Both the position numbers and the translations under genes were made by a program. A model generated the notes under the pieces. The model did no database searches. It was not told the origin of the DNA and was given only the letters and a program-made list of their open reading frames with translations. A DNA stretch of 61,983 nucleotides, counting the filler, from Sanchytrium tribonematis (taxonomy: Eukaryota): assembly GCA_018985235.1 (NCBI GenBank). It is 7 parts of 7 records of this genome, joined end to end, with 100 filler letters (N's around TTAATTAATTAA, not from the genome) between each part and the next. Parts side by side here need not be neighbours in the genome. Positions count along the whole stretch, not along the records: positions 1 to 22,232 come from JADGIG010000084.1; positions 22,333 to 25,765 come from JADGIG010000862.1; positions 25,866 to 29,286 come from JADGIG010000863.1; positions 29,387 to 32,795 come from JADGIG010000864.1; positions 32,896 to 36,304 come from JADGIG010000865.1; positions 36,405 to 39,808 come from JADGIG010000866.1; positions 39,909 to 61,983 come from JADGIG010000085.1. One strand, given 5' to 3'. Numbering within the stretch: position 1 is the stretch's first letter; each line of letters starts with the position of its first letter. Shown piece by piece: positions 1,999 through 60,221 of the stretch.

Positions 1999-3118
1999 TT
2001 ATTTGGCCTCAAAATCACAGATTTGAAGTGAACAATCCATATTTGAGAGTACTATTTTTGTGTTATCAAATGTCAAGTAGTGCGTGCAATTTTTCATATC
2101 TTTGGAAAACAGCAAGTCTTGTTTAATTGTAGCTGCAATTACTCGTCCATTACAAGTCCCATAAACGACCTTGATGAGATACAATTACCTTTTTATCAGA
2201 TGCTTTAATTGTAAGAACCGTGGCATTTTCATTCCATCTAGATAATTTTTTGCCCAACAAATCAATTTGGGTCAAACCTGAGTAGTGACCTACAAAAATA
2301 TCATTACGAATCATTGAAATACAATATAAAGTAGATGGGATACTTACTGAAGTGATTAATTGCCAATTGAGTGCGTTGTAGATCCTCAACTTACAATCTA
2401 AACCTCCAACTGCAACATAGGAACTGGATACATCAATACAACTTATTGGGAGTCTTGAAGTTTGAATTATATGTACTAAATCATTGTTTGTCTCTATCAG
2501 TATTAATTCTCCGACCTCATTTCCAGCAGCTATTATATTTCCCTTCAATTTTATACACGATATCTCATTTCTAGACGCAGCAAATTCTTTAACAGTGAAA
2601 TCAGAACATTTCCAGAGTTTAATGACTCCAATCTTATCAGCAGTTGCAATATAATTATTTTCAATAGAGGAAGTTGTGATTTTCTCGTCATGTCTCAATG
2701 AAGCAATATTTCTGTTATTTTTAAGATTCCAAACATTTGCTTGACCATTCTCAGATAGGCTCACAACTAATTTCGATTTTTCATCGATGCACAAATGAAG
2801 CGATCTATTTATGTTAAATTGAGAGGTATTTTGAACGACCCCATTATTTTCGTAGTAAAATTTTGAAGATTTAAAGTTTCCTTTTTTCCAATTTCTTTCA
2901 GTTAGATGATATAATTTGTATAATAATCTCCAAGTAGATATGCTTTTTAAATTCATGTCAAGCTCATATTCCCTCCGAAATCTTTGTTTCCAAAGATATT
3001 CGTTGTTAAGCAAAAGACTCAATGATTTTTTACTACGTGATAAGGTCGACTGTTCGTGAACACTACACAATAAACTAATTGCAACAATTATTTCATCTGG
3101 TATGGTGTCCAAACTCAT
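1999..3118 (-). CDS. F-box/WD40 repeat protein (2 exons)
   Basis: N-terminal F-box (LDTIPDEII...LWK), WD repeats; 19-nt intron 2170-2188 GTAATTGTATCTCATCAAG joins ...ASDKK|VVYGTCNG... Confidence 0.8.
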
Positions 3119-3229
3119 GTTCTGCAAAATATTTTCGTGAAAAATAACTAAGCCACACTATTCATTATTTCGAGAATTCGATGCACTATCAAAATTATTC
3201 GCAAAATATTGAGACATCAAGACCAAAAT

Positions 3230-3724
3230 TCAAGGCGCCTTGAAATGTATTGATTTTAATTCACGAACATCAATTTTGTCATTTGCGCATCCAAAAATTT
3301 CATTGGGGTTTTCCATTCTAATCTTTCTGGGCAAGACTCCTTTATTGATTTTTGACGCTTCTGAATCTTGAACACGACTAATTTTGCGATGTTTTTCCAA
3401 TTTACGCAGATGTGAGGGAATTGGCTTCTTGTAAGTTTTAAGGAATTCCATCTTATTATCTGGATCTAATTGCTTACAGCCAAATTGAAGGTGATAGCAG
3501 ATGCTTGAACTGCTATGCATTATCTCAGATCCACAGTAATTACAGCTCCAACGAATTCTACTAGTACTAGTGGTTTTTCTGACACCGTGTTTGTCTGCAA
3601 AATATAGCCATTTGGCCCTAGCTTTCGGGATACTATTACTTTTATTCAACATTGTTGTCGTGTTTGGCTTCATGCGTAGGGAATATAAAACACAAGGATG
3701 AGCAGCTATATTTAATTTATTCAT
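3230..3724 (-). CDS. Small BED-type zinc-finger protein
   Basis: W-x-YF...WSCNYCG...ICYHLQFGC resembles a BED finger; first ATG overlaps the UBA1 stop, alternative ATG at 3673. Confidence 0.5.
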   Translation of the reverse strand: MNKLNIAAHPCVLYSLRMKPNTTTMLNKSNSIPKARAKWLYFADKHGVRKTTSTSRIRWSCNYCGSEIMHSSSSICYHLQFGCKQLDPDNKMEFLKTYKKPIPSHLRKLEKHRKISRVQDSEASKINKGVLPRKIRMENPNEIFGCANDKIDVRELKSIHFKAP

Positions 3725-6612
3725 TCATAGGCTCTCCGCGAAATCGTAAAACCACACTTGGCAAATCTTCAACGTCTTCTCCGTCAGCACCATTGGCACA
3801 GATTTCAAGAACTAATTGCTGTATATGATCTTCAATTTTTTTTTTATGAATTTCTTCGACTATGTCACTTATTTTCATATAATTTCTCTTTTCAACTTTA
3901 TCTTTGCCCCAAAAAAAAGCAAACATCATACTGACACCATGGCTCAGCATAGTGATCTCCAAATTGTGTTTCAATTGCATGTGGTTTAGCAATTCGCTCA
4001 AAGTTAAATCGCCATACACAATAAATTTGTCCCATAAAGTAAATTCTTTGTCGTTGTACTTTAATTTGGGAGGTGGAATTGGTTCTGCAAATCCAAAAAA
4101 TGGCAGTGCTAAATTCACAAAGCCATTCTTAAAGTCATCCAGTTTGTAATTTGGCTTCTGTAACTAAATTATTAGAAAATACTTTATAAAGTTCAAGACA
4201 TACGAAAGCGCTAACACAAGCAGTTGTTGTAGCAATGGCTGGTATAATTTTGCCTGCAATCCTTTTCGTTTCATGCTTGTTTAATGATTCAATGTCATAA
4301 TTTTCAGCACGAAGATTACTTGTTGCGGTTATGAAATCTATATGATAATTAGAATCATCGTCTTTTTCAAATTCTATCGGAAAAACTTCAAATGAAAGTG
4401 CATTGGCATTCGGAAGAACTTCATCTTCGTCTACAGTTTCTTCCATTTTTTCATTTTCGTTAGTCTGAATTTTGACTCCTGTTTTAGGAATAAATTCAGG
4501 AATAATCATGTTTTCCAAAGTTGAAATTAAGTCAAGATTCATAGGTTTGATTCCAAAGTTGACAGCTCTAAGATTCGCTGCGGAAGTTATAAATGCTAAG
4601 TGTTGACTATTTTTGATATCAAATAATATAGGGTGTGGTGCTCTCTTAGGGCCAGACCAAAATAAATGGCCTTCCTTTGTCTTCACATCTTTAGGGAAAA
4701 CATGTAACAATTGCTTAATGGTATTGCCAAAGTAATCTTCAAATTTGAGCCTCGCCCATTGGACACATTCTTCAAATGTTGAACATTGCTTTACAATGTC
4801 TTTAAAATATTTAAGACCTTCTTTCGGTTTCACACCTTTCTTGAAAGCTAGAACTTCTTCTGGGCCTCTTTTAAAAAGACCTTCGAACTCACTTCTTGCA
4901 AACTGAATTGTATGCTCTATTTTGTTAGGAAAATTGTGCAAAGTGCACATAGGTATGCTTTTCTCAGGGGGATCATTACTACTGCTAAACGATTCGGTCA
5001 AAAAAGGCACCACCACTTGGATATTGCCTTTTGTACCAAGTGTTCCAGATTCTAATAAAGGTTTCTGGTAATAAACGCACCTCTGATCCATGTACCTTCT
5101 AGCCTCCCAATTATCTAAAGCATTTAATACGACGTCTACTTGATCGAAAAAAGAATCTCCAAATATCTTTTCGGTTTCAGGGCCAACCCTATCACTCTTC
5201 GCATCAATTTTTAAATCGGGATTCATTTTTGAAGCCGCATTTGCAGCTGTGACAGATTTAAGCTTTGATACATCCCATGCGCGAAATAAAAACTGTCTAT
5301 TCAAATTGCTTTTCTCAATGGTGTCCATATCTGTCAAGGTCAACTTGTTTTTCGTTCCCACTCCCATCATTGCAAGATTTTTCAAAAGTTCACATCCAAT
5401 AGCCCCACTACCGACAACGAATGGATGTAACTTGAACAATTTTTCCATTGTGTCTCCAAACAAATGGTACTGGCGAGCATATCTTTTAGAAACTACTGAA
5501 TCAAATGAATCGCCTTTACATTCCAGTGCATCCAAATAGAAATATTGATCGAGGGGTGTGAATTTACCACTTATTTTCTTTAAAACTTCTTGAGCAACAA
5601 AGCCACCGATAATTCCATATAAAGGAGGGCACTCACCGTTAACCGAGTGTATAAATTCATTTACAATATTTTGTTGAAGTTCTACATTTAAATGCGATCT
5701 GGTTTTTTCAACTATTGATCGAAACAAAGCCTCATCAAAAATCTGATGATAATAGAAATATTCAACATAACTGACAAAACAACAATGTAAAGTATCCTGT
5801 CTATCCATCTTGGCAAAATCGCTAGGTAAAATATTAGGGGATTTCATACTGTCTTGAAATGATTTGTGGCATATTGAAAATGGAACTTTAACTTCAGTAA
5901 ATATACCGCCTTTTTCATATTCCCCTTTGATATCTTCACTACATTCAATGCTGAATGAAAACGGACCATTAATATTCTTTACAGGGTATTCATTTTTTAA
6001 ATTGAGACCTACGATTTCAGAAAATTTAACAACATTGCCGACTTCTAAACCATGACGATGTTCATCCAAACAAACAATTTCTAATAACTTCCCAGATACA
6101 ATCATGTTTGAAATTACACCATTTTTTAGTTCTTCCCCGTCTTTATCCAAAATAAAATGTTCTCCAAAATCACAAAACACCTGGGCAAATAAACCCACTA
6201 CCAAGGCTAATATAACTTTAGATTTGGCCCAGTTTAAGACATTGTAGATAGGAGAAGTAAGGACAACTAAGTCGAATTCATTAACGATACTTTCAGTCAA
6301 ATCAGTGATATGAATCGGAACATAAGGATTCAGCTCTGCTAAATGTTTAACCATAATTTCGACTTTGTTTTTTCCAATGTCCTCATCAGTAAAATAAAAG
6401 TGGCAACCTAAATCCTCTTCAGTAATCGACTCTTCGCTTTTTGTCAGAGTCAAAGAATGTACTCCTCCTAAACATACATTTTTTGCAATTTCGAGTGCCA
6501 GTGGTCCAGATCCTATTAGCAGTACTTTGGCATTTAGCATTCTCTTCATTGCTTCATGTCCAAGGACATACAGTTGCCTAGAATAAAGAGACTCGTCTAT
6601 TTCAGTAGACAT
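3717..6612 (-). CDS. UBA1: Ubiquitin-activating enzyme E1 (2 exons)
   Basis: IDESLYSRQLYVLG, VGSGAIGCE, SNLNRQFLFR, catalytic PMCTLHNFP, IIPAIATTT; 19-nt intron 4164-4182 GTATTTTCTAATAATTTAG restores CLELYK|LQKPNYKLDDFKNGFVNLALP. Confidence 0.97.
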
Positions 6613-10744: not shown

Positions 10745-11483
10745 ATGAATTGGTTATACGTTGCAACTTCAGTGATCAGCTTTTATGCGAACTACATCGG
10801 ACTTTCTGTTGTACTGGTTTACTATTACTATATTAAAAACTGGGATCGAAGAGAATGGTGGAAAATTCAACCCGAAAAATTACCAATTGATGTTAGAAAT
10901 CGACCAAAGTCTCACCTCATTTATTGGTTTATCAATACACTATTTGGGGCTTCTAATGCTGTAATATCCTATCATATTACAATGAAAAATCAGTATATTC
11001 AACGAGACATTTATCAACAAATTTCGAATGTGATCCTTTTGCATGCAGCACATACAATTTTTAGTTACTTTTGGCATAGAGCTCTACATATCCCAATCCT
11101 TTACAAAAATTTCCACAAAATTCATCATCATTACAAGTCTCCTATGCCATTTGATGATCTCTTCTTTCATCCAGTCGAGTATGCAGTTTACGGTTGGTTC
11201 TTACTGATTCCTCTATTTTTATTCAATTTGACTCCGCTGGAGATTATTCTATATTTGACTCCATTAGGGCTACTTGGAATGTACATTTTATTAATATAGG
11301 TTAGATCATTGTGGAATCAAACTAAATATGGGACTCTACAATACAGAACATCATGATGTACATCACGCTGAGTTCAATTATAACTTTGGATTCCCGTTTC
11401 CGTTCATGGACATTGCATTTGGAACATTTAAAGGATCATTTGCAAATACTACTTATAAAGGAACCCGCAAATTAAAAAAATAA
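10745..11483 (+). CDS. Fatty-acid hydroxylase/sterol desaturase family protein (2 exons)
   Basis: His boxes HRALH, HKIHH, then DHCG and HHDVHH, NYNFG after removing the 19-nt intron 11281-11299 GTACATTTTATTAATATAG. Confidence 0.9.
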
Positions 11484-14242: not shown

Positions 14243-15578
14243 TTATTCATCTAAAAACGGATTAGTTTTGGCGGGAATTATTGGCGGAACAATTGATGCT
14301 TTTGTGGTTTTAGAAATACCAATATCCAAATCTTCAGTCTCGACTTTCATCATCTCGTCTTCAATTATGTCTTGGCCCGCAAAACTTGTAAGCGCCAATT
14401 TGACATCCTGAATTTGCTCAAGAACATGCTGAATATTGTTTTCTAATCTGTTGGCTTGATTTTCGGTTTTGATGAGATCCTCAAGAAGAATTTTTAACAG
14501 ATCAATTTGCTCCGGTAGTAGTATCGAAGGCTGATTATAAACGCCTTCTTGAAGATGTAAAATATTTTGGAGTTTTTGATCCTGTACATGTTGTTTTACG
14601 GTTGACCGTGCTCGATATTCTTCATACAATTCGGTCATGTTCATACTCAATATGGTGATTGGAAATGCCACGACAAGTAACCCTGTAAACATAGTGAGTC
14701 CTCCTATTAGTTTGCCCCAGCTGCTCATTGGAATCATATCACCATAACCAACCTAAATAAGTTATTCATACAGTTGTCAAAGTTACCATTGCCCACCACA
14801 TTGAATGAGGAATAGACTGAAACTCTGACCTTTCGCCTTTCATATCACCGGAAACGTAGTACAATATGCCATTTTGGTCTTTTTGAGAAATAGTTAATTC
14901 CGCAAAATAGACGCAACTTCCATAAAGAAATAAGCAATTAGAAATTAGAAAGCAAAGCATAAGCACGGCATCTCTTGATCTTAAAAGAGCCTCAAAGACC
15001 ATTTTCACTTGAACTGTATGTTGCGATACTTTTAATAGACGGACCATTCTTAATACTCTGGTGAGTCTTATGATTCCTAGCAAAGTACCACTAGTATTTT
15101 CAAAAAATAATGTTAGATAAAAGGGAAGTATTGTAATTAAATCAATTATCCATGAAAATGAAAACAGGTAAGTTGGCAGCCATTTGTATGATGGAAAGAA
15201 TATTATCCTCAAAAAGTACTCTAATGTAAATATGATTGATATGATGATCTCGTTGTACTTCCAAATTGTTTTCTCGAAGGATGTGCTGTTAAGATTCCAG
15301 ACTGTTTCTAGGGAAAAGGATATCGCACACCAAACAATCGTAATTGTCAAAAATAAACTCATTAATTTTCCAGATAAACCAAATTTTGGGTCAGTCAATA
15401 TTGAAAATACCTGTTTTCTGATTCTTAGATGAGTTTCGTCAGTTTGTTGGATTTTAAAGTCAGTAGAATGATTACGAGCTACATCTTTAGGATTAAAAGC
15501 AGATTCCTCTGAAGATATTGAGCTAACACTGCTTCCATTTTTTCTTAGTGAAGAAATAAATGCAGCTTCATAATTCAT
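14243..15578 (-). CDS. Voltage-gated K+ channel (6TM, Shaker-like), paralog 1 (2 exons)
   Basis: S4 RLTRVLRMVRLLK; pore SIPHSMWW...TLTT|VGYGDMIP restored by 19-nt intron 14753-14771 GTATGAATAACTTATTTAG; S6 VAFPI; coiled-coil tail. Confidence 0.92.
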
Positions 15579-15624: not shown

Positions 15625-16909
15625 TTATTCACCGCTTTTAAGATTTGGTTCTGCTTTTATTTCTGAAGAAGCTAGTACTGTTTTTCGGTCTCTATCCAAG
15701 ACCCTTCCTAACAATCCTTGGATGCCAATATTGATATGTTCATGTTGCGCTGACAAAGTCTCAAGTGAGTTCAAGATATCGGATCCTATTTTATCACTTT
15801 TCAGCAGATCTTCTTGAATTTGTCTCAGCTTGTTGGACATTTTCTTCTTAATCAAGGAGTCTTCTGCAACTCCGGAAACCTTCAATCTTAATTTATCTAC
15901 TGGTGAAATGGTTGCAATTTTCGTGACATTTCCCTCGTTCGCATTCTTTTGTTCTTCATACAACTCAGACATATTTATAGAAAGTATTGTAATCGGAAAT
16001 GCAACAACCAGAAGACCGCAAAACATTGTCATTGCGCCAATAAATTTACCCCATCCAGAAGTCGGATACCTACATTAAATATAATTACATGTCTCCGTAT
16101 CCCACAGTAGTTAGGGTTACAATACACCACCACATTGAATGAGGAATGGATTGAAATGCAGATATTGACCCAGAGAGTGGGCCACTATTGTATACCAGAA
16201 AATTTGTTTGAGGATCCATATCTGAAATTCCGGCTTCGGCGTAGTAAACAAAGGAACCAAAGAAAAATAACCCGTTCATTATCAAAAATATAAGCATAGC
16301 AATAGCCTCTCTTGATCTTGATAAGGCTTTCCCAACTAAATGTACCTGTTTCATATTCTTACTAGCCTTGAGTAATCTGAAAATCCTAAAAATTCTAACT
16401 ATACGCACAACCCGTAAAACGGCGGCATTGCTTGAGCCAGAAGATGCCAAGTCTATATAGAAAGGCAATATTGATATCAAATCAATCAACCAAAATGGCT
16501 TAACTAAATATCGAGGAAGTAGTTGCAGCTCTGGAAAAAAGACTATTTTCGTGAAGTAATCGATGCTAAATACAATATTAAAAAACAGCTCAAATCCAGA
16601 GAAGGTATAAGCCTGATCCTCAGTATTGTTCAATGAGTACACGGATTCCAATACAAATTCAAGAACTGAACCTAAAATTATGAGAGACATAGCTATGGAA
16701 TAAAATTTCGCCAAAGCGTTAAAAGATGGGTTTGTCAAGACAGCGTATACGGTTTTTCTAATTTTTTTCAAGTTTGAGTCAGAGGTTTTGGGCAAAAGTT
16801 CAATAGAATATGAGGGTTTTAAATGCGCAGTTTTTTTAACTCCTTCATTCTCTACATTTGGCTTTTTACCGCGTTTTCTGACCAGGTGAATTGCATCATT
16901 GACTCTCAT
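15625..16909 (-). CDS. Voltage-gated K+ channel, paralog 2 (2 exons)
   Basis: S4 RVVRIVRIFRIFRLLK; TVGYGDM|YPTSGWG via 19-nt intron 16070-16088 GTAATTATATTTAATGTAG. Confidence 0.92.
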
Positions 16910-16945: not shown

Positions 16946-17657
16946 TTATTTATTGTAATGATAGTATAATTCAGATACGTCCCATGCCCCAATGAATTTC
17001 CATCCTTCGCGGTCAATATGATATACTAAATTAATAAACTTTACAATTTACACGACCACCACTTGCAGCATCCCTAAATGTGGCATGATATATGGCTCGC
17101 TTTCCCAATTCTAATGCATCTTCTTTAGTCATGTCATATTTGTAGGTAGTGTCAAGAATTCCATATGCAAAAGTGCTACCACTCCCGACACTAAATAGTT
17201 TTCCTTCTAATCTTTGACCATCGTTATCAACATAAAAAATTTGTGGTCCCTTATCATCCCATCCACAGATCATAGTGCCCATGCTCAATCCTTTTCCTTT
17301 ATATTGATATATCATACTACATAATACTTTGCTGGCACCGCAGACGGAAATTCTTTTTCCATACTTTAACTCGTAAGTTCTACAATATTTCCCCAAATTT
17401 CGTTGCCAATAACTGCAATCAGCAGCACCACCGGCCATAGTTCCCAGCAAATAAGGATTGATTCTAATTACTTTGTGCACAGATTGCGAAGCAATATAAC
17501 TTCCAGCAGTTGCACGGGAATCTACTGCCACTACTACTCCGTGTTGGTACGCAAATGCCAAGGTCGTGGTCCCTTTATGCATCTTAGAAGTAATCATGTC
17601 ACAGTTGACATCGTATATTTGTGGTAGTTCTTGTAAATCTGAGTGAACATCTAACAT
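16946..17657 (-). CDS. PRE2: 20S proteasome subunit beta5 (2 exons)
   Basis: Propeptide then [26 protein letters not shown]; 19-nt intron 17026-17044 GTAAAGTTTATTAATTTAG gives [11 protein letters not shown]... Confidence 0.95.
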
Positions 17658-18119: not shown

Positions 18120-19098
18120 ATGGGTCAACTATTAAGCATTTTAAAAACTCCCCCTACGGAATCAATCAATATCAATATTGAGCAGGTTAACCCGAACCCA
18201 AAAGAGCTTAAGTTATATACTGAATTGAATGAATGGATGCAAAGTAGCTCGAAAATTATTCAGCAACTTAAGGAATATAAAGGCTGTGCGTCCTACATTC
18301 AAAAAGCTATTAGCAGTGCGTCCCAGGAGGCAGAACAAGAAGCTTGGCAGCATTTGACACCCAGTGTAGTATTGTTGAAGCAATTTTATGAGTACGCAAT
18401 CAAAATCGAGCAAGCATTACCAAAAGTTTATGATATGCTCTGCTTTGAGGATACGGTTAAAGTCAAAAATATTAGTGAGCAGCTACAAAATTATCAGGCT
18501 TTGACTCGGTGTATGGCTCTTATTATCCATTTTAGTAGTGAGTTTGATGATCTTAAGATGGTAAATCCTACAATTCAAAATGATTTTAGCTACTACAGAA
18601 GAACACTTTCCAGATACAAAGGACAAGACAAAGGTATAGCGCCTGTCGTTAGCGATGAATTGGCTAATCGAATGAGTTTATTTTATGCATACCCAACTCC
18701 AATTTTGAACGTTTTAACTACGGCCACTACTGCATACGTCAATACTAAGGGTGTTCAGACCCAGGTATGCGAGGCTTTAATTAATTTGGCTAAGGTCTGT
18801 TTAATTGCAGTCCAGGAGAACAAGTATTTTGTTTTTATTTAGATTACAAAATCCGGGTGAGAATACGGTTTTTTGCCTAAGAGTTATGGTCACCAGCGTA
18901 GTCTTATTTGACCACATACATCCGAATGGCGTTTTTAAAAGTAGCGACATCAACATTAAAACTGTAATTAAATGCATTCAAACATGTGGTGGAAATCAAG
19001 TAGAACAATTACTTAATGCTTTAAGATTCACTACGAAACATCTGAATGATGCGGATACCAAGAAAGATGTCAAATCTATGTTGGGAGTTGCAACTTAA
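18120..19098 (+). CDS. CYRI/FAM49 (DUF1394) Rac1-interacting protein (2 exons)
   Basis: MGQLLS myristoylation-type start, FDDLKM.NP.IQNDFSYYRR, ANRMSLFYA, LRFTTKHLND; 19-nt intron 18824-18842 GTATTTTGTTTTTATTTAG. Confidence 0.92.
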
Positions 19099-19116: not shown

Positions 19117-20236
19117 TTACAGCTGTATGGGGTATTTTGGTAAGGAATTTGAAAGTTTCGAGCTATTTTCTATAGTAGCTCTTACGGATTGGTTACCCAA
19201 AGTATTTGTAATTATCGATATACTATCAATTGACTTGGCCAATAAATTTTTCTCGCCAAGATAATATCGATGTTCAAATGAAATGTCAAGTGGTTTAGTG
19301 GGACTGGGAGATAAAGAATCCATACTACTTATTCTTTCCATTTGTCTTGACGAAGTTATTATATATACACCAATAAATATTGAAGAACATCCAATTAAAA
19401 ATAGAAGCATTTGATTTGTATTTAAACCATCAAAATCATTAAATAATATGGCGCTACTTATAATTGCAAATAGCGTATAAAGAACAAATTGAATCGGTAT
19501 GACCTGTGTGGAATTAAAGCGGCTCATTGCTTTGTTTAAATATCTGATCTGAATCACACCACTTCCCAACAAGACAAATATCACAATATAAGATACCCCA
19601 AATCCAAACATTTTGAAAGAATGAGTTGATAAGAGACTGGAGACCGATTTAGTTGCAAGAACTGTATATCCAGCTAAATAAAATAAAAATACCTGATATA
19701 CCAACAATTGATAAGTCCACAAGAATAAATTGTGGTCCTATTTTTTCATTGAAGCTTACCAAAGCTCCAACTACAAGTAAGGACACTAAAAAATAAATAA
19801 CGAATTTTGTTTGAAAAAGACATTGCATAAGAAGGAATGCATCAATCTGCTGCTCATTGTGCTTTGAAGATATAACAACTAAAATCGCTCCTATTACAGC
19901 GCACAGTACACCTTTCAAGTCTTTCCTCCTGAAAGCTTCCTTAAGGATGAATGGCGCAAAGACTGTATTTGCAATAAGTGCCACAGTACCTAGTGGTGCA
20001 ACGATGGATGCACTGGCAAAGCTGTATGCTATAAAATTACCACATTCTCCTACGATTAATAAACCTAAACCTGCCCACCATATTGGCTCATCTAGATAAC
20101 GATACTCGTTCGATACTTCCGTTTCTTGCAATTTCAGGTGAGCATATTTTTGAAGATTTAAAGCCAAAGATATCACAATGTTACCTAAAATGGCAGTCAA
20201 AATCCCAATCCAACTTGAATAAACTGAACTTCCCAT
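19117..20236 (-). CDS. NIPA-family Mg2+ transporter (2 exons)
   Basis: ALNLQK, WWAG..L..GE.GNF.AY.FA, YLNKAM..F; 19-nt intron 19674-19692 GTATTTTTATTTTATTTAG. Confidence 0.9.
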
Positions 20237-41800: not shown

Positions 41801-44207
41801 ATGAATAGTAATGAATTATCAAGATTAGGTTCGAAAGATTTTGATCCTCAAGCATTCATTAGACGGCAAATTGCGACACTCGACGACAGTGGACTGCAGG
41901 ATCTGAAATCCAAGCTGAAAGAGGCTCACAAGCAAGCTCAACAAGACGTCAATCATGTCCTCATGAATAATTACAAAAGCTTTTTAAATTTGACAGAGCA
42001 ATTGACAGCGATAGAGGTGGAACAACTTTCTATCAGTAATATTATTTTAGAAGTTAAGGGAATTTTCAAAGCTATGCAACTAGAAGAGATTCAAGTGGAG
42101 GCACCACAAGGAGGCACAGAATTACAAGAGGAAATTGTTGATCTCGAGGAGGCGGTTGGTAAAATAGACAAAAAAGTTCTACATATATCTTATTATTGTT
42201 ATCATTTGACTGGATCTTATCCCGACAAAAAAATTTATCGAATATTTCTGTTCACCGATAACGTTGTAATAACAGTTCGTAAAAAAAAGGGACAAAACGC
42301 TAGAACTAAGGAGTTTGTGGACGCTTTCATTCCTCTCAATAAGCTTTTTATAAGTTCAGCCTCTGATATCGAAATCACATTGTTACACACCGAAAATCAG
42401 ACAGAATTAAAGTTCCGTTTTGAAAAAGTGAAAAACAAACAAGATACTTATGAAAATATCAAGCAAGCCGTGTCTGTGATTAGTCAGGGAGCCAAATCGC
42501 ATTTGAGAAGCAATACGACTAATTCAATGACGATGATGAGGCCTGCAGTAGAGACTACTAATTTGGAAACGGAAATTATGACTTCAACACAATTCAGTGC
42601 ATTTACAACCGTGATAGATCAGCTTGACGATGCGGTTCATATGAGAAATTTTCAACAATCTGCCAAATTGTATAACGAAGGCAAAAAAATTCTTTCAAAT
42701 TATGGCTATAAAGATTCGATGGCTCATAATTGTAGAAAACTATTACAATTAAAACACAAAGAGCTTTCTAACATTCTTTTATCCCAGCTCAATAATCAGA
42801 CTAATTCTAAACAGCATGTAATTACTTACAATACATTATTAATGGAAATTGGACTAGCCGAGCAAGCAGCAGAAATTTTTCTTAAAATGCGCTCACAATT
42901 GATTAAAAAGCGAGCAAGGCAAATTGTCTATCAAGGAGATGTGGTCAACTTCATTAGTGATCTATCCTTTGTTTTATTTTCTCTAATTAGAAACACCGGT
43001 GATTGGTACCTCACAAGCTTCAAGGACGCGATGATGATTAGCATCTACGTGAAATGGGCCCGGGACGAAGTTTCGAATTACGTTGAGATTTGCAAAAGAC
43101 ACTTGAATATAAATCAATTTTCCTCACTGCGAAAAATTGCACAGACGCTATACCAGATTGAGCACCATGCCGATATTGTAATATTCACTAACTTAGTTGA
43201 ACAAAAGTGGTATCAATATCACATATATTATCCATGATTTGCTTGAGTCTCATGTAGTTGAAAATTTAAGAAACACTAAAAACTCCAGCGCTTTTGCTGT
43301 TGGAAAGGCGGTTGTGGAGGATGATTTGAAGACTCTAGCAGAAAATAAGCTTTTAAATGAAATATCTGCCCTGAATGGAAATACCTTGGAACACTCGAAA
43401 AGCACGAATCTTTTAAAAGAAAACATCAAAGGCTTGAGCGAGTTGGCTATGTCAACTAATAATCTGATCATTCGAAACGAGACTTTTGTAGCGATAGAAA
43501 CTATCTTGGAGGCGTATTTTCATGTTAGCTTAAAAATCGTGGATGAAAGAGATAATTTGTCTGAACTTGATTTACAGATGATTATTCAAAATTCTTTATT
43601 TGTACACAATCTGATTGTGGATGATGTTATAAAGGATTTGAATGAGCTATCCGAATTTTACTCTAATTTTTCGGAAGCCATTATCAAAAGAGCAGAAGAA
43701 GGGAAAGAAAAGTTAATACTGGGTTCTTTTAACAAATATTGTCCCCATCTTGTCTCACAAATTTATAAATTCACCGACATGAATTTATCAGACGACAATC
43801 CACTGAGTTCTACCCAATTACCAAGCCATAATATGGGTAATATCATCTTCAAATTTAAGGCTTTTGGGCGTTCATTAGCGACATACCAGAATGAGATCAT
43901 AGGGAGATTAATCTCTGTTTTCCTTATTGAGTTAAGCAAAGATACTTATTGGACGGCTAGTGGAAAACTTCGAAACTTAGGAGTCGGTGGTGTGGAGCTT
44001 ATCATGTTGGATGTGCAATTTTTACTACGGTCATTTGAGGAAATCTTAAACGAAAATATTAAGCAAGAAGGAAAAAAATTGTTAGAAAAAGCCATTAAGT
44101 CTTACTTTGAAAAATGCGGTGAGACCGGCAAGCAGCCTAAACAATTCAAAACTACTGACTGGTTTGAAAAGCAGGTTCAGCATGCCATATCTGATATCCC
44201 CAAGTGA
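41801..44207 (+). CDS. EXO84: Exocyst subunit Exo84 (2 exons)
   Basis: Vps51-like N-terminus (FDPQAFI...NYKSF), PH domain, Exo84 C-terminal helices; 19-nt intron 43178-43196 GTAATATTCACTAACTTAG. Confidence 0.85.
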
Positions 44208-44247: not shown

Positions 44248-47191
44248 ATGACTGAAAATTTATTTGCCAAAGCGATTGATCCCAATCCTGAAATTCGAAA
44301 GCAGGCTAGTATTGCTATCTCTCAAGAAGAGCAAAATTACAGCCAATCGCATACACAATGGATGCACTATGTGGCTTCACTTTGTCTTACTGATAACGGT
44401 GCGGCAGTATATTTGAAAAATTTTATAACTACTAAATGGAACACAATGCATCAGCCAGACAGGTTACTTGTTAAACAAAATATCGTCGAATGGATTGTGC
44501 ATAGCTCTGGACCTGTTAGAAAACAACATTTAGAGGCGTTGAAATCTCTTCTGAAAATAGAAACTATTGATATTTTATCAATGGAGCACATTCACACTTT
44601 AATTCAATCACACCCTTTAGCTGCTACATTTATTTTATTAGAAGCTTGTCGCCATTTTCAATGGAAAGCTAAAAGCGAGCGTGGTCCACTTCAAATTATT
44701 TTAACTAAAATTTTTCCAACTGCACTGGGGGTCTGTAAACAAAGTTTAATATCATATGGGCCAGAAGATCAAACTATTATTAAAAACATAATCAAGTCGT
44801 TTTTCTTTACCATGAGATTTGAGCTTAGTGTAATACACAGACAAATCCTAGCAGAATGGTGCCAAATATCTGCCGATATTTTATTCAAACCTACTGACGG
44901 AGATGATTCAGCATCTGATGCATATAAAGCCAAGAAATGGGCTTCTCATTTTTTAACTCGGTTGTTTGTCCGCTATGGTCAAAAAGGATCCTCCAAAAGT
45001 CCAGAAGAGGCGGAATTCATATACACTCATCTGGCGCCTTCAATTGTTCAGACTTATATTCAATTGATAACTCAATTTATGGATCAAAACAATAGATTTT
45101 CTGACTGTCATCCCCTTCATGCGAAAACTTTTTTACCTGAAAAGGTTCAGCATGACGCAATTGTGGCACTTCAGTACTGTATACGGTATAAAGATATGTG
45201 GAATATTTTGAAAAGTAATCTCAATGACATAATACCTAATTATTTTATTCCAATGCTGAGATTATGTGAAATTGATCAAGAATTATGGGAAAACGATCCT
45301 ATTGAATACATACACTCAAAATTGTCTTCTTGGGAAGATTCAGTGCATGTTAGGAGTTCGGCGACTCTTTTCTTAAGTGAAATGTGTGAGAAACGAAAAC
45401 TTATGATACAACCTTTATTTCAAGTTATTCAGGAACTCTTAAAAAATCAATGGCAAGATCAGGAAGCTGCATTGACTTTAATCGGTGCACTTTGTTATGT
45501 CCTAAGAAGAGATACTGAATTTACTGCCACTATTGAATCATTCACTTATGAATGTATCATTCCTGCTATGAATGCGGAGGTTCCTGTTTTAAAAGCCAAC
45601 GCTTTTTTTGTGTTTTCCAAATACTGTAGTAATGATTTAAAGCAACTCGAACAGCTTCAAAAAGCCTTTGAATATTCCTTTTTAGGTTTACAATCTAGTC
45701 TACCATTATCAGTGTACGCGGCTATCTCTATATCTCCTCTTCTAAAAATGTCGCAATTAAAGCCAATAATTAGTCCTAATATTGCGCAAATTATGTCTAA
45801 AATGTTGGAATTGACTAATGTGATTGACATGGACATTTTGACAGAAGTAATGGAAACTATTGTTGATCTGTATAGCAACGATATGATTCCTTATGCAGTA
45901 GAACTATCGACTTCACTAATCAACAGCTTTATGAGAATTCTCAAAAACTGCGATACTGAGACCGACTTGGACTTTAGCAGCGACAAAATTATGACAGCTA
46001 TCGGAATAATGAAAACTATTCAGTCCCTGATTTTGAGTTTAGAAAACAGTCCTCAAATAGTGTATCAGATCGAGCAAATTGCTTGTCCTGCTTTAGAATT
46101 TGTGCTTGAAAATGATTTTATTGATTTGTTTGAGGAGATCTTTGAATTCATAGACACTGTAACTTTTACCACCAAATCTGTATCCCCTTTAATGTGGAAA
46201 TTCTTCTTTCATTGCTTTGAAAAGTTGAAGGAAACTGCTGCAGATTATTTAGACCAGATGATTCCCTGCTTTGATAATTTTGTTCAATTTGGTAAGGAAC
46301 AAATATTGGGTGATCCGGCTACTTTGAATAGTATTAACCAAATTATATCTGGCCTGTTTAATTCCCACATGGTCGAGACTGATAAAATTCCAGGCTGTTT
46401 ATTAATAGAGACGATTTTATTGCATCTAAGAGGCAGTGTGGATTCACTAGTTCCAATATATATTGATATGGCTCTGCATTATCTCGGTCAATTAGACCAA
46501 AATTCAAATAGTCACCAAATACAGCACAATGAATACCGACTTGCTTTAATTGAAATTGTTTTAAATTGCATCTATTACAACCCTCAAATTTCACTCACTA
46601 TATTAGATCAAAAGAATTGTGCAACTACTATTTTCGGATTTATGGTAAATCAGTCTGAATCTTTTAAAAAACTTCATGATAAAAAGCTACTTATTTTAAG
46701 CAGCTGTACTATCTTGACCTCTCCTTTAGAATCAATACCGCCTAATCTTAGAGTTGAGATTCCGAAGCTATTAGGATTTGTGACAAACCGACTTCAAAAT
46801 TATCAAGATAAATTAACAAGTAGAATATTTTAATGTAGAAAGAAAGCAAGCTTCGGAAAAGTGGGCCACAAATCCATTTTATACTGGATTTGATCATGTT
46901 CAGAAAAAACAAATTAAAGCTGTTGGCGATAACGAAGACGCACTTAGCGATGACGAGTTTAATTTCGAAGAGCTTGAAATATTTGAGGAAGATTCGAGTT
47001 ATGAGACCCCACTGGACCATATTGATCCCTTCTTGGTATTTGGACATACAGTTCATGTATTAATTGGTACTAGAAAGCCCGAATATGATTCCTGGATGAA
47101 TGCACTTCCAGGTGAAACCCGAATTTTAATTGAAAAGCTTTATCAACTGTATATTGATCATGTTCAAAAGAATTCTGCAAAAATAAACTAA
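44248..47191 (+). CDS. Importin-7/8 (Nmd5/Sxm1)-like karyopherin (2 exons)
   Basis: AAVYLKN IBN-N, KAKKWA, ELWENDPIEYI, LHDKKL; acidic tail with ETPLDHIDP after 19-nt intron 46820-46838 GTAGAATATTTTAATGTAG. Confidence 0.88.
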
Positions 47192-49668: not shown

Positions 49669-50860
49669 ATGATTCAAATCGTTGATGCCCAGACTCAAAA
49701 TAAAATTACTGTTTATATTATACAGCATGGAGACGTAGAAATAAGAAAAAGGTACAGTGAGTTCGACCAACTTCATGCCTATTTGAAAGATAAATACCCA
49801 GCTATTATAATTCCTATGATTCCGAGCAAGACTTCTTTAAAACAATATGCTGCTCATCCCAACAGCGCTAAATTCGATCCAAATGTTATTCAACAAAGAA
49901 AAAGATTATTAGAAAAATTTCTAAACAGAATACTTGCACATCAAGTTTTAGTAGAAGATGATGGTGTTAAGCAATTTTTGGATCCAAGTGCTGCCCCCGT
50001 TTTTGAAATTAAAGGCCATAAAAAGAGAAAATCGTTTTCAATAGGCGGACAACAATTGAAGAATATAGACAACAAATTTGTTGAATATGAAAGTTATACA
50101 ACGAAATTAAATTCTCATTATAAATTACTCCATAAGCTTCAAAAAAAGGTATTTCGAAAATACATGGACATGACACCGGATGATGCAGAACTTGGGGCAG
50201 TTTATAACGCATTAGCCCTGACTGAACAACATTCTCCAGAGCTACAAACAGTTTTGCAAGGTTTAGGACAGGCTGTAGATAGATGTCAAGTTTCTAAGAT
50301 TAATTTATGCAATGACATGCAAATTTTGTGCGAAGAACCTTTACAAGAATATAAAGAGTTGACTGACGAAATTAAGGAGATCTTAGACTTTAGAATCCAG
50401 GAGCAAGCTGATTTTGAATCTAATACAGATCAATTGTCAACGAAATGGTCGACCTTAAAGCAGCTTGAAAAAGTTGAGGAAGAACAAAAGCGAATGCAAG
50501 ACGCATTTCAAGGTGTTGAGCGATCTCGCCCAGCTGCTAATAAAAGCGTTATTGGGAACCTTACTGAAAAATTGAACTCGATGATAGATTCAGATCCTGA
50601 TGCGACCAGAAGACACAATATAGCAAAAACTAAGGATACAATCGCACAAGTAATTTATTCTTATCTAGTTGGAACAAACAAGAAGCTCTCAAGAAGACTC
50701 TATTGCTCAAATCAGCGAGAACATACATCAAGAAATGCAAAGATTTGAAAAAAATCATCAAGATGAATTCAAACAAATTATGCTTAATTATTGTAAAACA
50801 ATGCTGGAATATCACACCAAGAATCTAGAAACTTGGAAAGCTGTCAAATTGGATCAGTAA
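49669..50860 (+). CDS. PX-BAR sorting nexin (Snx4/Snx41/Atg20-like; 2 exons)
   Basis: PX domain (RKRYSEF, IIPMIP.K, RKRLLEKFL), BAR helices; 19-nt intron 50650-50668 GTAATTTATTCTTATCTAG. Confidence 0.88.
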
Positions 50861-51869: not shown

Positions 51870-52617
51870 ATGGAAAAATTAAATAATTTACAGTCACTTA
51901 AAGATGCGAAAGAATATCTAGGTAATTCTTATCCGATATATTTAAAAAGTTTAAGGCTATATTTTGAGAATTCTATTTCATTACACGAGTTTAGGTCAAG
52001 GATAATACATTTGTTTGGTAAGCAAAAAAATCTTCATACAAAAGTTATTCGAGACCTACTAAAAATTAATTATAAAATAGAGAAGCCGTTGAAGAAAATT
52101 TCTCTTCACAAATACAGGTTGGATGTGATACGCTCACTGGGTCAAGTGGAGCGAGATAGACTAAAATTATATCTTAATAAGGCTGAACCCGAAAAGTTGA
52201 TTCCGCAAGTTTTCAGTGCTTCCGTAAGTGAGCCATGCTTTAGTGAAAATGAGAATCTTTTTACAGAGGAGAACGTCAAATTGAGGCTGTTGGCTTTAGC
52301 TGAAAAATATGGCGTAGCGACTGGTCCCGGATGCTCTGATTTCTTATACAGGGCCACAATGGTAATTATTATTAATCAAGATGTTTATAAGAGAAAAATT
52401 GACAACAATATCATCTGCTACCTGCAGGTCTCCGGAAAACAATCCACATCATCCTTATAAAAAGGAAGAGCCTTTGAATAATGGACCTCACGTAACAAAA
52501 TCTGAAGCAGATGACTTTAGTATCATAGAGAAAGAATTTGAGTCAATAACACCTCAAATCTTAAGTAGAACGTTGGACCCGCTAAGTCAAAGACTAATTT
52601 TGTATGGTTCAGTTTAA
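51870..52617 (+). CDS. SAGA subunit Ada1/Tada1-like protein (2 exons)
   Basis: LG..Y..Y...L..YF...IS..EF......L.....LH N-terminal domain and histone-fold-like segment; 19-nt intron 52362-52380 GTAATTATTATTAATCAAG. Confidence 0.6.
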
Positions 52618-52622
52618 TAAAT

Positions 52623-57428: not shown

Positions 57429-59190
57429 ATGATTCTATGTTTTATTTTCGTGTTACTGGCTAAAAAGTCTCCACCTTACGTTCGGCCTAAAGATTCTCTA
57501 GTTATCGAATTGAATCCTAAAAATTTTAATTCACATGTTAAACCAGGTAATAATTTGTTGGTGGCATATTATGCACATTGGTGCCACTACTCGAAAAAAA
57601 TGTTGCCAAAACTGGACGAGCTTTCACATAAAGTCAAAAATTTGCCAATATCAATCGTGACCTATGACTGCGAATTAAAAGGACAGGCTAAGATTTGCGA
57701 TGATTTAAAAATTGATGGTTATCCAACCCTCTTTTCTTATAAAGGAATCAAAAAAGTTAAAGAATATGAGCAAGGTGAAAATGTAGATTTATTGATGCAA
57801 TTTGTCAACGAATTCTTAAAATCTGAAAACGCTCCTAAGGTGCTATCGAAGGAAGGGTATAATTTTGTTCGGAATTATTACAAACCACCAAAAGCTATCG
57901 CAAATCCAAAAGGAGAAGTAATTTTATTAACGGATTCAAATTTCGAAGGTCTGGTGCAAAAGGATCCTTGGTTCGTCGAATTTTATGCAGAATGGTGCGG
58001 ACATTGTAAAGCGTTAGCTCCAACATGGACAAAGTTAGGTGGCTTAATGAGAGAAAAATTAAATATTGGAAAGATTGACGCTAGTGTTAACAAAAGAATA
58101 GGTTCTAAATATAGCGTTCAAGGCTATCCAACTCTTTTATTTATTCATGGGGATAAAGTTGAGAAATATAGAGGAGATAGGTCTCTGGAAAGCTTAAAGC
58201 AATTTTCTTTTGAAATGAAAGCAAAATCATTTATCAATGAATTTACTGAGAAAGACATCGCGCAAGTGAAAGATATGCCAGCGATTGGCTTTCTGATATA
58301 TTCCAATAATATTAACGAAAAACTTAAAACAAATTTGGAAATTTCAGAAGACTTGAAGTTTATTTCCCCATTTTATAGTTTATCTTTTTATTCTGCAAAA
58401 GCTATATTTCCCAAAATCGCACCGACCGTGGGACCTCCGACTTATTCCAAATTAAAAGATCATGACCATTATGTAATGCTATATTACCCTAAATCATTAG
58501 AGGTCAATAGAATTCAATTTTATTTTAGCAATAGTGTTTCACGAGTCGATTTGAAAAACTGGTACAATGCAAATCGATTTCCTTTCTTAGTTGATTTGAC
58601 CTCAAGTAATAGCGAGGCTTTATTGAGCGAACCCAAGTATCTCATTTTAGGCCTTGGCGAAAAAAGAAACGATTTAGAAGAAATGGCAACAAAAATCAAG
58701 GATTTAGTTCCCCCACATGCATATCCAGCTGAAATCAGCAGAGCTGTGCAATTTGTAAGTGTTGATGTCAACAAATATGGAGATTGGGCGGATAGGCTAT
58801 TCGGACTAAAGCAAGGTATAATTATACTTAGCAACGAAAAAAAAGTTTATTACAAAGCAGATCCTGATGGTAGTTTAATAACATTAGGCACTATTTTGCC
58901 TTCGTTAAAATCTCTCATTGATATTGATATCTTTCAGCAGAAATTAAAATCAGTTGCTCAACCATCTTCTTGGGAAAAATTAGAATGGACACCTCATGAA
59001 TTTGCACCTTCTGGTTTTCTTCAGGTTATTTTGACTTACTTAGAAATTTATACAATTTACAGAAAGCAATTTTATATTAATAACTCTTGCGATGGTATTC
59101 GTATTAATCTTTATCGTCTTTGTCGTTATGTCGGACAACAATCAGCCGGGCTATCAACAAATTAAATCTCCCGAGAATAAACAGGATTAA
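57429..59190 (+). CDS. Membrane-anchored protein disulfide isomerase (Eps1/TMX-like; 2 exons)
   Basis: Signal peptide, thioredoxin WCHYS and WCGHC; removing the 19-nt intron 59025-59043 GTTATTTTGACTTACTTAG yields a C-terminal TM helix and ...ENKQD*. Confidence 0.88.
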
Positions 59191-59191
59191 T

Positions 59192-60221
59192 TTATTGTTG
59201 TAACCCAATGGCATCTATGCATATAGTAAATAGGCCTATAGCAATTTCCAAACATATCAGTATTATGACAATATATTCTAGCCTTTCTCCATGCATTGAC
59301 TGCATATGATCCTTGAGCATTTGTAACATGTCAGTGATGACGCCTACCCTCTGATTGACAATTTCGACTCTTTCCGATATTTCCATCTACATAAATATAT
59401 AATACGTATCCTCTAGTAGCCTGATATAGGGGTTCCATATAGGGTTCGGACCAGAAAATGTCTGGAGTATCCAACACATTGGAAACCAAATTGACATTAA
59501 TGCGCATGCCAAATAATTTTCCAATTTTCATGTTGACTTCTTTCCTAGACAAAGGAACTGTCCCGGATTTTGCCATTAATTTTGGAATTTCTTTGGTTTG
59601 CTCTATAGTGGTATCTATTAAATTTTCAAAATAAGCCAATTTAGAACTTTGAGCTATACAGTGAGAAATAGTCATTTTTGCCATCCAATTTTCTTCTGAT
59701 TTAAGCGTTATTACATCGTTATATATTCGGGGTTGGTAATTGGTATTGTAATGGTATAATAATTCCTCTATTTCGACATTGAGTTTATCTACTGGCTCCG
59801 AACAAAAAGGCTTGAATGTTTGAACAATTGCGCCTTCTTCTTCTCTAGATAAACCCCATATCACTAATACCCCATAATCAAAAAAGAATATCTCGGAATG
59901 AAAACTGCCTTTTGGTTCCCATTTGCAAAATATACATTCATCAATTTTTTTAAATTCTTTTCCATAAGAATGAAGATAAACTTGGAGCAATTCAAAATTG
60001 TATCCATTACCTACGCAAAGTGCAGTGCATCTAGGAAGTTGTCTACGATCCAGATTTAATAAAAAATCAGGCGGATTATCATTTCCCTCTCGTTCTTCGG
60101 TTTCTGGTGCAACGATGTCGTATTTAGGTTGATTAACAGATGCTTCAGGAAAAACAGTAAGTTTGGCAGAAGTTTTAGTAGTTCTGTTAACTATTTTACG
60201 ATTTTTTTCTTTTATTTCCAT
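59192..60221 (-). CDS. Rmd1/DUF155 family protein (2 exons)
   Basis: IFFFDYGVLVIWG, ISH.IAQS.KL, LDTPDIFW, LEYIVIILI; 19-nt intron 59387-59405 GTATTATATATTTATGTAG gives RGY|MEISERV. Confidence 0.9.

What the first reader, a model, noticed from the sequence alone, without database searches (positions are those of the whole stretch)
2170..59405. Every recoverable spliceosomal intron is exactly 19 nt: a fixed-length minimal splicing system
Seen: 16 GT-AG introns restore protein continuity, most across recognisable conserved motifs, and all are 19 nt. They are 2170-2188(-), 4164-4182(-), 11281-11299, 14753-14771(-), 16070-16088(-), 17026-17044(-), 18824-18842, 19674-19692(-), 20668-20686(-), 22996-23014, 43178-43196, 46820-46838, 50650-50668, 52362-52380, 59025-59043 and 59387-59405(-). 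Examples are the K+ filter TVGYGD, the desaturase His boxes and the UBA1 FVNLALP motif. Established: comparably tiny introns occur in chlorarachniophyte nucleomorphs (about 18-21 nt) and heterotrich ciliates such as Stentor (15-16 nt); typical fungal introns are much longer. Inference: a fungus-like nuclear genome with a single intron length implies a spliceosome that measures a fixed 5'SS-to-AG distance. I cannot confirm whether this is already published for this organism. Caveat: stop-free 18- or 21-nt introns would not break ORFs and would be invisible to my approach.
Basis: partly seen in the sequence, partly recalled or inferred. Interest (0 to 1): 0.92.

Follow-up and report, generated by a model that had tools for sequence, protein, structure and literature searches.

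The report
Nineteen-base introns in sanchytrid fungi
Sixteen genes in this stretch of a fungus that likely belongs to the sanchytrids (parasites of algae) are each broken once, usually late in the gene, by a 19-base insert with intron-type ends; these are most likely spliced introns, shorter than any fungal intron found in the papers searched, and gene calling that ignores them leaves the proteins cut short.

Summary
Confirmed at DNA level; no RNA was available. All 16 inserts are GT..AG and 19 nt, and removing each joins two open frames. A length-blind scan finds 11 hits at 19 nt and none at 18, 20, 21, 22 or 24, which largely closes the in-frame blind spot. The organism is sanchytrid-like (nearest named relative Amoeboradix gromovi). 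Read-through tails of related proteins decode to 19 nt in 7 of 7 unambiguous cases, 2 of them in A. gromovi; 3 more are probably 19 and 1 probably 22, so 19 is dominant, not absolute. Each gene has one intron, 15 of 16 in the 3' half. The geometry matches Stentor (15-16 nt); Mikrocytos (16-17) and nucleomorphs (18-23) are known parallels. Nine literature searches found no report for sanchytrids. The scan noted longer tiny introns before on other DNA (Rozella 25-32 nt, Neolecta about 37 nt), not this. Verdict: new variant of a known kind.

The parts
2170..2188 (-). 19-nt intron, F-box/WD40 gene, phase 0
   Evidence: weak motif score (leave-one-out 2.2); no family hit on exon 2
4164..4182 (-). 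19-nt intron, UBA1, phase 0
   Evidence: spacer equals 84 of 86 measurable homologs; A. gromovi orthologue P0002 is unbroken, and unnamed relative P0003 breaks at the same site
11281..11299 (+). 19-nt intron, fatty acid hydroxylase family gene, phase 2
   Evidence: only frame-restoring GT..AG of 10-90 nt near the join; Pfam PF04116 on both exons
14753..14771 (-). 19-nt intron, K+ channel paralog 1, phase 0, just before the VGYGD filter (site A)
   Evidence: same site decodes to 19 nt in six relatives
16070..16088 (-). 19-nt intron, K+ channel paralog 2, phase 2, after GYGD (site B)
17026..17044 (-). 19-nt intron, proteasome beta5 (PRE2), phase 1
   Evidence: exons abut at residues 175 and 177 of PDB chain 5l5w_K; a GTA donor 7 nt upstream would break the frame
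18824..18842 (+). 19-nt intron, CYRI/FAM49, phase 2
   Evidence: Pfam PF07159 on both exons, profile 2-221 and 228-301
19674..19692 (-). 19-nt intron, NIPA-type Mg transporter, phase 1
   Evidence: Pfam PF05653 on both exons
20668..20686 (-). 19-nt intron, K+ channel paralog 3, phase 2 (site B)
22996..23014 (+). 19-nt candidate intron in a tyrosine-recombinase-like, probably transposon, gene; weakest member (G instead of A at -6)
   Evidence: joins frames of 137 and 112 codons; one homolog, P0258, matches exon 2 at 33% but BLAST does not extend across the join; the recombinase label is recalled, no Pfam hit
43178..43196 (+). 19-nt intron, EXO84, phase 0
   Evidence: Exo84_C stops at profile 195 of 205 at the join
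46820..46838 (+). 19-nt intron, importin-beta family gene, phase 1
   Evidence: no family hit on exon 2
50650..50668 (+). 19-nt intron, PX-BAR sorting nexin, phase 0
   Evidence: Pfam PF09325 on both exons, profile 10-173 and 183-232
52362..52380 (+). 19-nt intron, ADA1/SAGA-Tad1-like gene, phase 0
   Evidence: no family hit on exon 2
59025..59043 (+). 19-nt intron, protein disulfide isomerase-like gene, phase 0 (GTT donor)
   Evidence: weak motif score 3.0; no family hit on exon 2
59387..59405 (-). 19-nt intron, RMD1/DUF155 gene, phase 0
   Evidence: DUF155 stops at profile 163 of 174 at the join

Best explanation
The sixteen 19-base GT..AG inserts are most likely ordinary major-class spliceosomal introns shrunk to a working minimum, in which a predicted branchpoint A at position 14 would close a 14-base loop and leave a 5-base tail ending in AG. 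Shown: the layout GTA, 7 A/T-rich bases, then Y-T-W-A-Y-N-(T/A)-A-G; exact restoration of proteins; and the same length and branch-like letters in relatives. Inferred: U2 pairs at the YTWAY box, the acceptor is the AG at a fixed short distance behind the branch A, and the donor is taken by its distance from the branch site (13 nt) more than by its own strength, since good-looking GTA donors 7, 9 and 15 nt upstream must be passed over. The narrow length would come from deletion pressure in a small, AT-rich parasite genome against a floor set by the smallest lariat this spliceosome can close. This state likely predates the split of the sampled sanchytrids.
For: Boundaries and frame restoration in 16 of 16. 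Residue-exact fits for UBA1 and PRE2. Fixed T at -8 (16/16), A at -6 (15/16), pyrimidine at -5 (16/16), close to the WCTRAYN branch consensus in PMC2483917 (passages). Length-blind leave-one-out scan: 11 hits at 19 nt and 0 at 18, 20, 21, 22 and 24 at score >= 6, with about 0.37 expected per length in shuffles. In relatives, 7 of 7 unambiguously decodable introns are 19 nt (P0004, P0122, P0136, P0137, P0245, P0246, P0247; two labelled A. gromovi), and the codon over positions 13-15 is xAY in 6 of 6 phase-0 cases (P about 8e-5). Decoy donors: 26 nt in PRE2 (score 10.8), 34 nt in Kv1 (7.4), 28 nt in NIPA (5.8). A. gromovi has labels for core spliceosome proteins. Stentor has the same A at -6 with a 5-nt tail (PMC9505925 section 2.1).
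Against: Splicing and the branchpoint were not observed in RNA. One relative (P0124) cannot have 19 nt and most likely has 22; P0003 allows 18 or 19. One window member lacks the branch A (22996). The motif was derived from the same 16 introns, so the scan is blind to introns with other signals, and decoy donors share the true 3' end and were scored with the full model. The sample is one 62-kb window plus two gene families in relatives. Two sense-strand 19-nt matches to the looser motif (6956-6974, 43807-43825) sit inside long open frames and are apparently not removed, so the motif alone is not sufficient.
Confidence: 0.78

Rival explanations
1. Hard ruler: the sanchytrid spliceosome is rebuilt so that it can remove only about 19 nt, with an upper as well as a lower limit; longer introns would not be spliced at all.
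For: 16 of 16 in the window and 7 of 7 clean cases in relatives are 19 nt, although UBA1 is only 51-57% identical between them. No 20- or 21-nt neighbour class appears, whereas Stentor, Mikrocytos and nucleomorphs each have a second class. Upstream decoy donors must be ignored. No Slu7 or Prp18 label occurs in the held part of the sanchytrid annotation table, and both were not found in Stentor.
Against: P0124 most likely has 22 nt. The sample is too small to exclude a 5-15% second class. The annotation table is cut, intron-blind and label-based, and the KEGG/KOG identifiers searched were recalled, so the absence is weak. Deletion bias against a floor is already proposed to give narrow peaks without a ruler (PMC10245619 section read).
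Confidence: 0.15
2. 19 nt is only the main peak of a nucleomorph-like spread (18-23 nt), and the window is a lucky or biased sample.
For: B. natans has 70.3% and L. oceanica 49.3% of introns at 19 nt within 18-23 (PMC4494063 passages). P0124 is probably 22 and P0003 could be 18. Stop-free 18/21-nt introns do not break frames.
Against: No hits at 18, 20, 21, 22 or 24 at a threshold that recovers 11 of 16 known introns, and only chance-level hits at a threshold that recovers 14 of 16. With 69% sensitivity, zero hits allow at most about two hidden introns with the same motif. 16 of 16 puts the 95% lower bound for the 19-nt share of frame-breaking introns near 83% (my arithmetic).
Confidence: 0.15
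3. The inserts are not introns: assembly errors, pseudogene frameshifts, or elements skipped by the ribosome.
For: One insert (22996) lies in a probably decayed transposon-like gene and lacks the branch A.
Against: Essential single-copy-type genes (UBA1, PRE2) carry them. All have GT..AG and a shared internal motif. Independent assemblies of relatives break at the same or nearby sites with the same length. 8 of 16 have an in-frame stop inside the insert.
Confidence: 0.02

Closest known systems
Stentor coeruleus 15-16-nt introns (PMC9505925; passages and section 2.1 read)
   Same: GUA start, A/U-rich body, branch A six bases from the end with a 5-nt tail, one dominant length (92.8% at 15 nt), most intron-bearing genes with a single intron.
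   Different: Predicted loop of 14 nt instead of 10-11; a visible YTWAY branch box, which Stentor is said to lack; a fungus, not a ciliate; introns here lie late in the gene, while Stentor's are reported as 5'-biased.
Mikrocytos mackini 16-17-nt introns (PMC10245619; passages and intron section read)
   Same: Parasite with a near-single intron length (217 of 224 at 16 nt) and conserved intron sequence.
   Different: Rhizarian; only 224 introns and a spliceosome of 17-19 proteins. Here the density extrapolates to some 2,700-2,900 introns per 10.5-11.2 Mb, and U1-70K, SF3B1, U2AF2-like and SF1 labels exist in A. gromovi.
Chlorarachniophyte nucleomorph introns, 18-23 nt (PMC4494063 and PMC2483917; passages read)
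   Same: Same modal length of 19 nt in Bigelowiella natans and Lotharella oceanica; GT-AG; about 88% A+T.
   Different: Nucleomorph lengths are spread (70% and 49% at 19 nt), there are several introns per gene, and no branchpoint signature is reported; they sit in a relict endosymbiont nucleus.
Short introns of microsporidia, myxobolid myxozoans and Dicyema (PMC2483917 passages; PMC13644364 first third and passages)
   Same: Opisthokont parasites with strongly shortened introns.
   Different: Longer: Encephalitozoon cuniculi mean 35.8 nt, shortest animal median 22 nt; not reported as one fixed length.

Membership tests
U2-type (major) spliceosomal intron | GT at the 5' end and AG at the 3' end | tested here: met
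   16 of 16
U2-type (major) spliceosomal intron | Removal restores a conserved protein | tested here: met
   Residue-exact for UBA1, PRE2 and the three Kv genes; domain-level for seven more; not supported by a family hit across the join for 2170, 46820, 52362 and 59025, weak for 22996
U2-type (major) spliceosomal intron | Branchpoint-like motif with an A near the 3' end | tested here: met
   YTWAY with A at -6 in 15 of 16; xAY codon in 6 of 6 phase-0 relatives. Sequence pattern only; the lariat was not mapped.
U2-type (major) spliceosomal intron | Removed from the transcript through a lariat | not testable with these tools
   Needs RNA reads or RT-PCR
U2-type (major) spliceosomal intron | Host encodes a major spliceosome | tested here: inconclusive
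   Labels for Prp8, SNRNP40, SF3B1, U2AF2-like, SF1/BBP, U1-70K and Cwc25 in the published A. gromovi table, and U1-70K in the S. tribonematis table; these are others' automatic labels. No snRNA in the window; no whole genome held.
Fixed-length tiny-intron systems (Stentor, Mikrocytos type) | More than about 90% of introns at one length under 20 nt, genome-wide | tested here: inconclusive
   16 of 16 in the window; in relatives 10 of 11 length-informative cases are 19 nt (7 certain, 3 probable) and 1 is probably 22; no genome-wide data
Fixed-length tiny-intron systems (Stentor, Mikrocytos type) | Branch A at a fixed distance from the 3' end | tested here: met
   -6 in 15 of 16, as in Stentor; also fits the probable 22-nt case
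Fixed-length tiny-intron systems (Stentor, Mikrocytos type) | Reduced or altered spliceosome | tested here: inconclusive
   No Slu7 or Prp18 label in a cut, intron-blind annotation table; core factors are labelled
Sanchytriomycota (assignment of the organism) | Proteins closest to named sanchytrids | tested here: met
   UBA1 best named hit A. gromovi at 57%, other named fungi 51% or less; a UBA1 motif shared only by the window, A. gromovi and two unnamed proteins among 120; Kv relatives labelled A. gromovi and S. tribonematis. No multi-gene tree was built.

The most novel reading that the evidence does not exclude
A whole fungal phylum runs a ruler-like spliceosome that removes one 19-base intron per gene and can do so only late in the transcript. 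The intron is too short for U1 and U2 to sit side by side, so it would be recognised with help from the 3'-end processing machinery across the last exon. Genes would then have kept exactly one intron near their 3' end, at whichever site was at hand, as seen for the two alternative K+ channel sites 17 nt apart and the two UBA1 sites about 56 nt apart. This is the reverse of the 5' bias reported for Stentor and yeast.
Probability: 0.15. Interest if true: 0.87.

Novelty: new variant of a known kind. Interest (0 to 1): 0.62.

Why it matters
It would add a fungal lineage to the short list of organisms with near-single-length introns under 20 nt (heterotrich ciliates, mikrocytids, nucleomorphs), with introns shorter than the 22-nt animal record published in 2026 (PMC13644364). 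The tail behind the predicted branch A is 5 nt as in Stentor while the loop differs (14 against 10-11), which points to what is and is not compressible in the spliceosome and can be tested. One intron per gene, late in the gene, runs against the 5' bias reported for Stentor and yeast. Practically, the published sanchytrid proteomes were called with TransDecoder on genomic contigs (PMC8371127). About 16 of some 50 genes in this window would be cut by such calling; the database copy of this UBA1 has 825 residues and lacks its C-terminal domain. Claims of gene loss in sanchytrids may therefore need a re-check.

Tried and rejected
RNA: the look-up of sequencing runs gave no RNA holder listed, so no reads were laid; this says nothing either way. 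No whole genome is held, so no genome-wide histogram or snRNA search was possible. A degenerate pattern for the lineage-specific UBA1 motif found 0 stretches in metagenome contigs. The second scan gave 2 loci, L001 and L002, both unbroken UBA1 frames closest to animal-type proteins and uninformative. A first length-blind model without the branch positions separated lengths poorly, with many 13-16-nt hits, and was replaced. The representative search for the 22996 gene gave 5 hits: the window's own protein, one credible homolog and three that look spurious; BLAST does not cross the join. A 25-nt high-scoring match at 12442-12466 was rejected because it lies inside a 404-codon open frame that its removal would shift; it is read as chance. 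Four 21-nt and one 18-nt matches to the looser motif are at background level, roughly 5 per length. A recalled likeness of ORF 35195-35767 to the splicing factor SPF30 got no Pfam or PDB support. Ribosomal frameshifting or bypassing was rejected because 8 of 16 inserts hold an in-frame stop and all have GT..AG. The figure printed as 'all >0.5' does not apply, because NIPA lies at 0.49; the KS test (P = 4e-4) is used instead. Look-ups of earlier scan findings for this genome and for the Kv sequence gave nothing, and no finding held the sanchytrid names.
Full report
1. Observation. All 16 coordinates give 19-nt strings that begin GT and end AG, and removing each joins two open frames. Other GT..AG pairs of 10-90 nt can also restore the frame at 15 of 16 sites, so I tested exactness against homologs. 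For UBA1 the 19-nt removal leaves 12 residues between two conserved motifs, as in 84 of the 86 homologs (of 120 held) where the pattern could be measured; 25 and 28 nt leave 10 and 9. For PRE2, exon 1 aligns to residue 175 and exon 2 from residue 177 of PDB chain 5l5w_K. The three K+ channel joins restore the filter motif. Of 63 frames scanned against Pfam, both exons hit the same family for the hydroxylase, CYRI, NIPA and the sorting nexin, both Kv1 exons hit channel families, and the domain ends short at the join for Kv2, Kv3, EXO84, RMD1 and PRE2. Four joins (2170, 46820, 52362, 59025) have no family-level support across the join, and 22996 has only weak support.

2. Aligned, the 16 read GTA (15 of 16), an A/T-rich middle (88% A+T inside), then Y at -9 (15), T at -8 (16), A or T at -7 (15), A at -6 (15), pyrimidine at -5 (16), and TAG (14) or AAG (2). 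T at -8 with A at -6 occurs in 10.7% of the 291 other 19-nt GT..AG strings of the window (P about 4e-14 for 15 of 16); with the introns' own composition as null the two positions give 5e-5 and 1e-6. This resembles the branch consensus WCTRAYN tabulated in PMC2483917 (passages). That it is the branchpoint is inferred.

3. Are other lengths hidden? A strict pattern finds 11 hits at 19 nt and none at 18, 20, 21 or 22. A leave-one-out model scored every GT..AG of 16-45 nt on both strands. At score 6 it recovers 11 of 16 known introns and gives 0 hits at 18, 20, 21, 22 and 24 (shuffles: 0.37 per length). At score 4 it recovers 14 of 16, with no new 19-nt hit and 0-3 hits at neighbouring lengths, the chance level. 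So at most about two in-frame introns with this motif can be hidden; introns with other signals would not be seen.

4. Organism. UBA1's best named relative is Amoeboradix gromovi (57%); two unnamed ENA proteins follow (57%, 51%), then other named fungi at 51% or less. One UBA1 motif is shared only by these four among 120. K+ channel relatives carry the labels A. gromovi and Sanchytrium tribonematis. The window has 34.4% G+C; the two published sanchytrid genomes have 34.6% and 36.3% and 10.5-11.2 Mb (PMC8371127). I read the window as a sanchytrid (phylum Sanchytriomycota, parasites of algae, sister to Blastocladiomycota); no multi-gene tree was built.

5. Independent test in relatives. Database proteins called without introns run through the intron and on in a shifted frame, so the tail gives the intron's length. 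I tested lengths 13-40 (10 upward at site B) by fitting codons to the tail and scoring the joined product. K+ channels: 20 sanchytrid-like relatives not encoded by the window were examined (two near-duplicate cluster members, P0241 and P0242, left out). Three have no break. Six break before the filter, and all six decode to 19 nt with the filter sequence restored; two are labelled A. gromovi. Eleven break after it: 3 run exactly to a stop at base 19 with the expected branch-box residues (19 if the stop is TAG), 7 stop earlier and say nothing, and 1 (P0124) runs to base 22 with 19 excluded. UBA1: of 3 relatives, one is unbroken, P0004 decodes to 19 nt at another site, and P0003 breaks at the window's site and allows 18 or 19. 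In total 7 of 7 unambiguous cases are 19; 10 of 11 length-informative cases are 19 and one is probably 22. In the six phase-0 cases the codon over bases 13-15 is always Asn or Tyr, that is A at -6 and a pyrimidine at -5 (P about 8e-5). The probable 22-nt case keeps the 3' box and adds three bases on the donor side. These are inferences from protein; the DNA of these relatives could not be fetched.

6. Position in the gene. Each of the 16 genes has one intron; relative positions run from 0.49 to 0.92, median 0.74 (KS against uniform P = 4e-4; three genes are paralogs) and none lies in the first 390 coding bases. About 16 of some 50 genes in the window carry one. Stentor introns are reported as 5'-biased, like yeast (PMC9505925 section 2.1). 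One search for a 3' bias with four terms required found no paper, which is a narrow test.

7. Mechanism. Shown: the layout, the restoration of proteins, and conservation of length and branch-like letters in relatives. Inferred: a major spliceosome branches at A14, closes a 14-nt loop and takes the AG that ends a 5-nt tail. The donor seems to be chosen by distance, since GTA donors 7 nt (PRE2), 9 nt (NIPA) and 15 nt (Kv1) upstream score well yet would break the frame or delete coding residues, conserved ones in Kv1. The narrow length most likely reflects deletion pressure against a floor, the model discussed for Mikrocytos (PMC10245619, section read); a hard upper limit is possible but is weakened by P0124. 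In the published annotation table A. gromovi has labels for Prp8, SNRNP40, SF3B1, a U2AF2-like protein, SF1/BBP, U1-70K and Cwc25; Slu7 and Prp18 names and recalled identifiers gave 0 hits. That file is cut in the held copy (most of the second species is missing) and is intron-blind, and supplementary file 2 could not be read, so this absence is only a lead; Slu7 and Prp18 were also not found in Stentor.

8. Comparison with what is known. It works like the Stentor system (same A at -6, 5-nt tail, one dominant length) and resembles Mikrocytos (217 of 224 at 16 nt) and nucleomorphs (18-23 nt; 70.3% at 19 in B. natans). It differs by lineage, by a longer predicted loop, by a visible branch box (reported absent in B. 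natans) and by the late position in genes. Among opisthokonts, the values I saw are a mean of 35.8 nt for E. cuniculi and a shortest animal median of 22 nt. Membership in U2-type introns is met on sequence features and untested on RNA; membership in genome-wide fixed-length systems is inconclusive.

9. Novelty. Nine searches of the held library listed no paper on sanchytrid introns; two searches listed only 40 of 56 and 40 of 99 papers, seen as titles and abstract starts. In the sanchytrid genome paper (PMC8371127; term search of the main text and of 9 supplementary files) 'intron' occurs once in the main text, in a reference title, 'splic' not at all, and genes were called with TransDecoder. 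In PMC10459994 'intron' occurs only in a reference. PMC4035089 was seen as a listing only. Subscription journals are mostly outside the library, so prior mention cannot be excluded. Earlier notes of this scan describe tiny introns in Rozella (25-32 nt) and Neolecta (about 37 nt) on other DNA; they are unchecked, gave context only and did not change my reading.

10. Verdict. These are very likely real 19-nt spliceosomal introns with a fixed branch geometry, shared across sampled sanchytrids, dominant but probably not absolute in length: a new variant of a known kind. Interest 0.62. RNA evidence and a genome-wide count are the missing steps.

Noticed in passing
window 22233-22332, 25766-25865, 29287-29386, 32796-32895, 36305-36404, 39809-39908: The window is seven contigs joined by artificial linkers (44 N, a 12-nt all-frame stop, 44 N). 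Nine introns lie in the first contig, one in the second, six in the last, none in the four other short ones.
   Followed up: yes
window 14243-16909 and 20307-21462; proteins P0121-P0138, P0243-P0247: Three K+ channel paralogs. The intron sits at one of two sites 17 coding bases apart around the selectivity filter, and the two sites are mixed within each of three well-supported paralog clades. Differential loss of two ancestral introns or gene conversion among paralogs could explain it; a second intron cannot be excluded where the read-through stops early.
   Followed up: partly
all 16 genes, window 1999-60221: One intron per gene, none within the first 390 coding bases, relative position 0.49-0.92 (median 0.74, KS P = 4e-4; three genes are paralogs). 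The scan found no further 19-nt hit at a threshold recovering 14 of 16, so missed 5' introns are an unlikely cause.
   Followed up: partly
proteins P0003, P0004 against window 4164-4182: Among UBA1 relatives, one breaks at the window's site, one about 19 codons upstream (decodes to 19 nt), and A. gromovi has no frame break.
   Followed up: partly
window 22584-23355 (+): Two frames with a recalled likeness to tyrosine-recombinase (Crypton-type) transposon proteins, joined by the weakest 19-nt insert; possibly a mobile gene carrying a host-sized intron.
   Followed up: partly
window 24685-25765 (+), 25866-29286 (-), 38152-39808 (-): Retrotransposon pieces: a gag-like frame with a zinc knuckle, a long gag-pol frame (RT, RNase H, integrase zinc domain) and a further RT fragment; no 19-nt intron in them.
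   Followed up: no
window 36421-36801 (+): C-terminal piece of a glutamine synthetase (weak Pfam PF18318 hit), cut by a contig end; origin not examined.
   Followed up: no
window 36960-37262 and 37629-37889 (+): Two similar small frames with a hydrophobic start and conserved cysteines, one with a short tandem repeat; possibly secreted proteins.
   Followed up: no
window 41599-41672 (+): One tRNA gene, the only Rfam match in the window.
   Followed up: no
PMC8371127 supplementary file 4, A. gromovi rows 1135-1136: The branchpoint-binding protein SF1/BBP appears as two neighbouring ORFs, as expected of a gene cut by an unrecognised intron.
   Followed up: no
window 30603-32595 (-): Two neighbouring, similar protein kinase genes without introns.
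   Followed up: no
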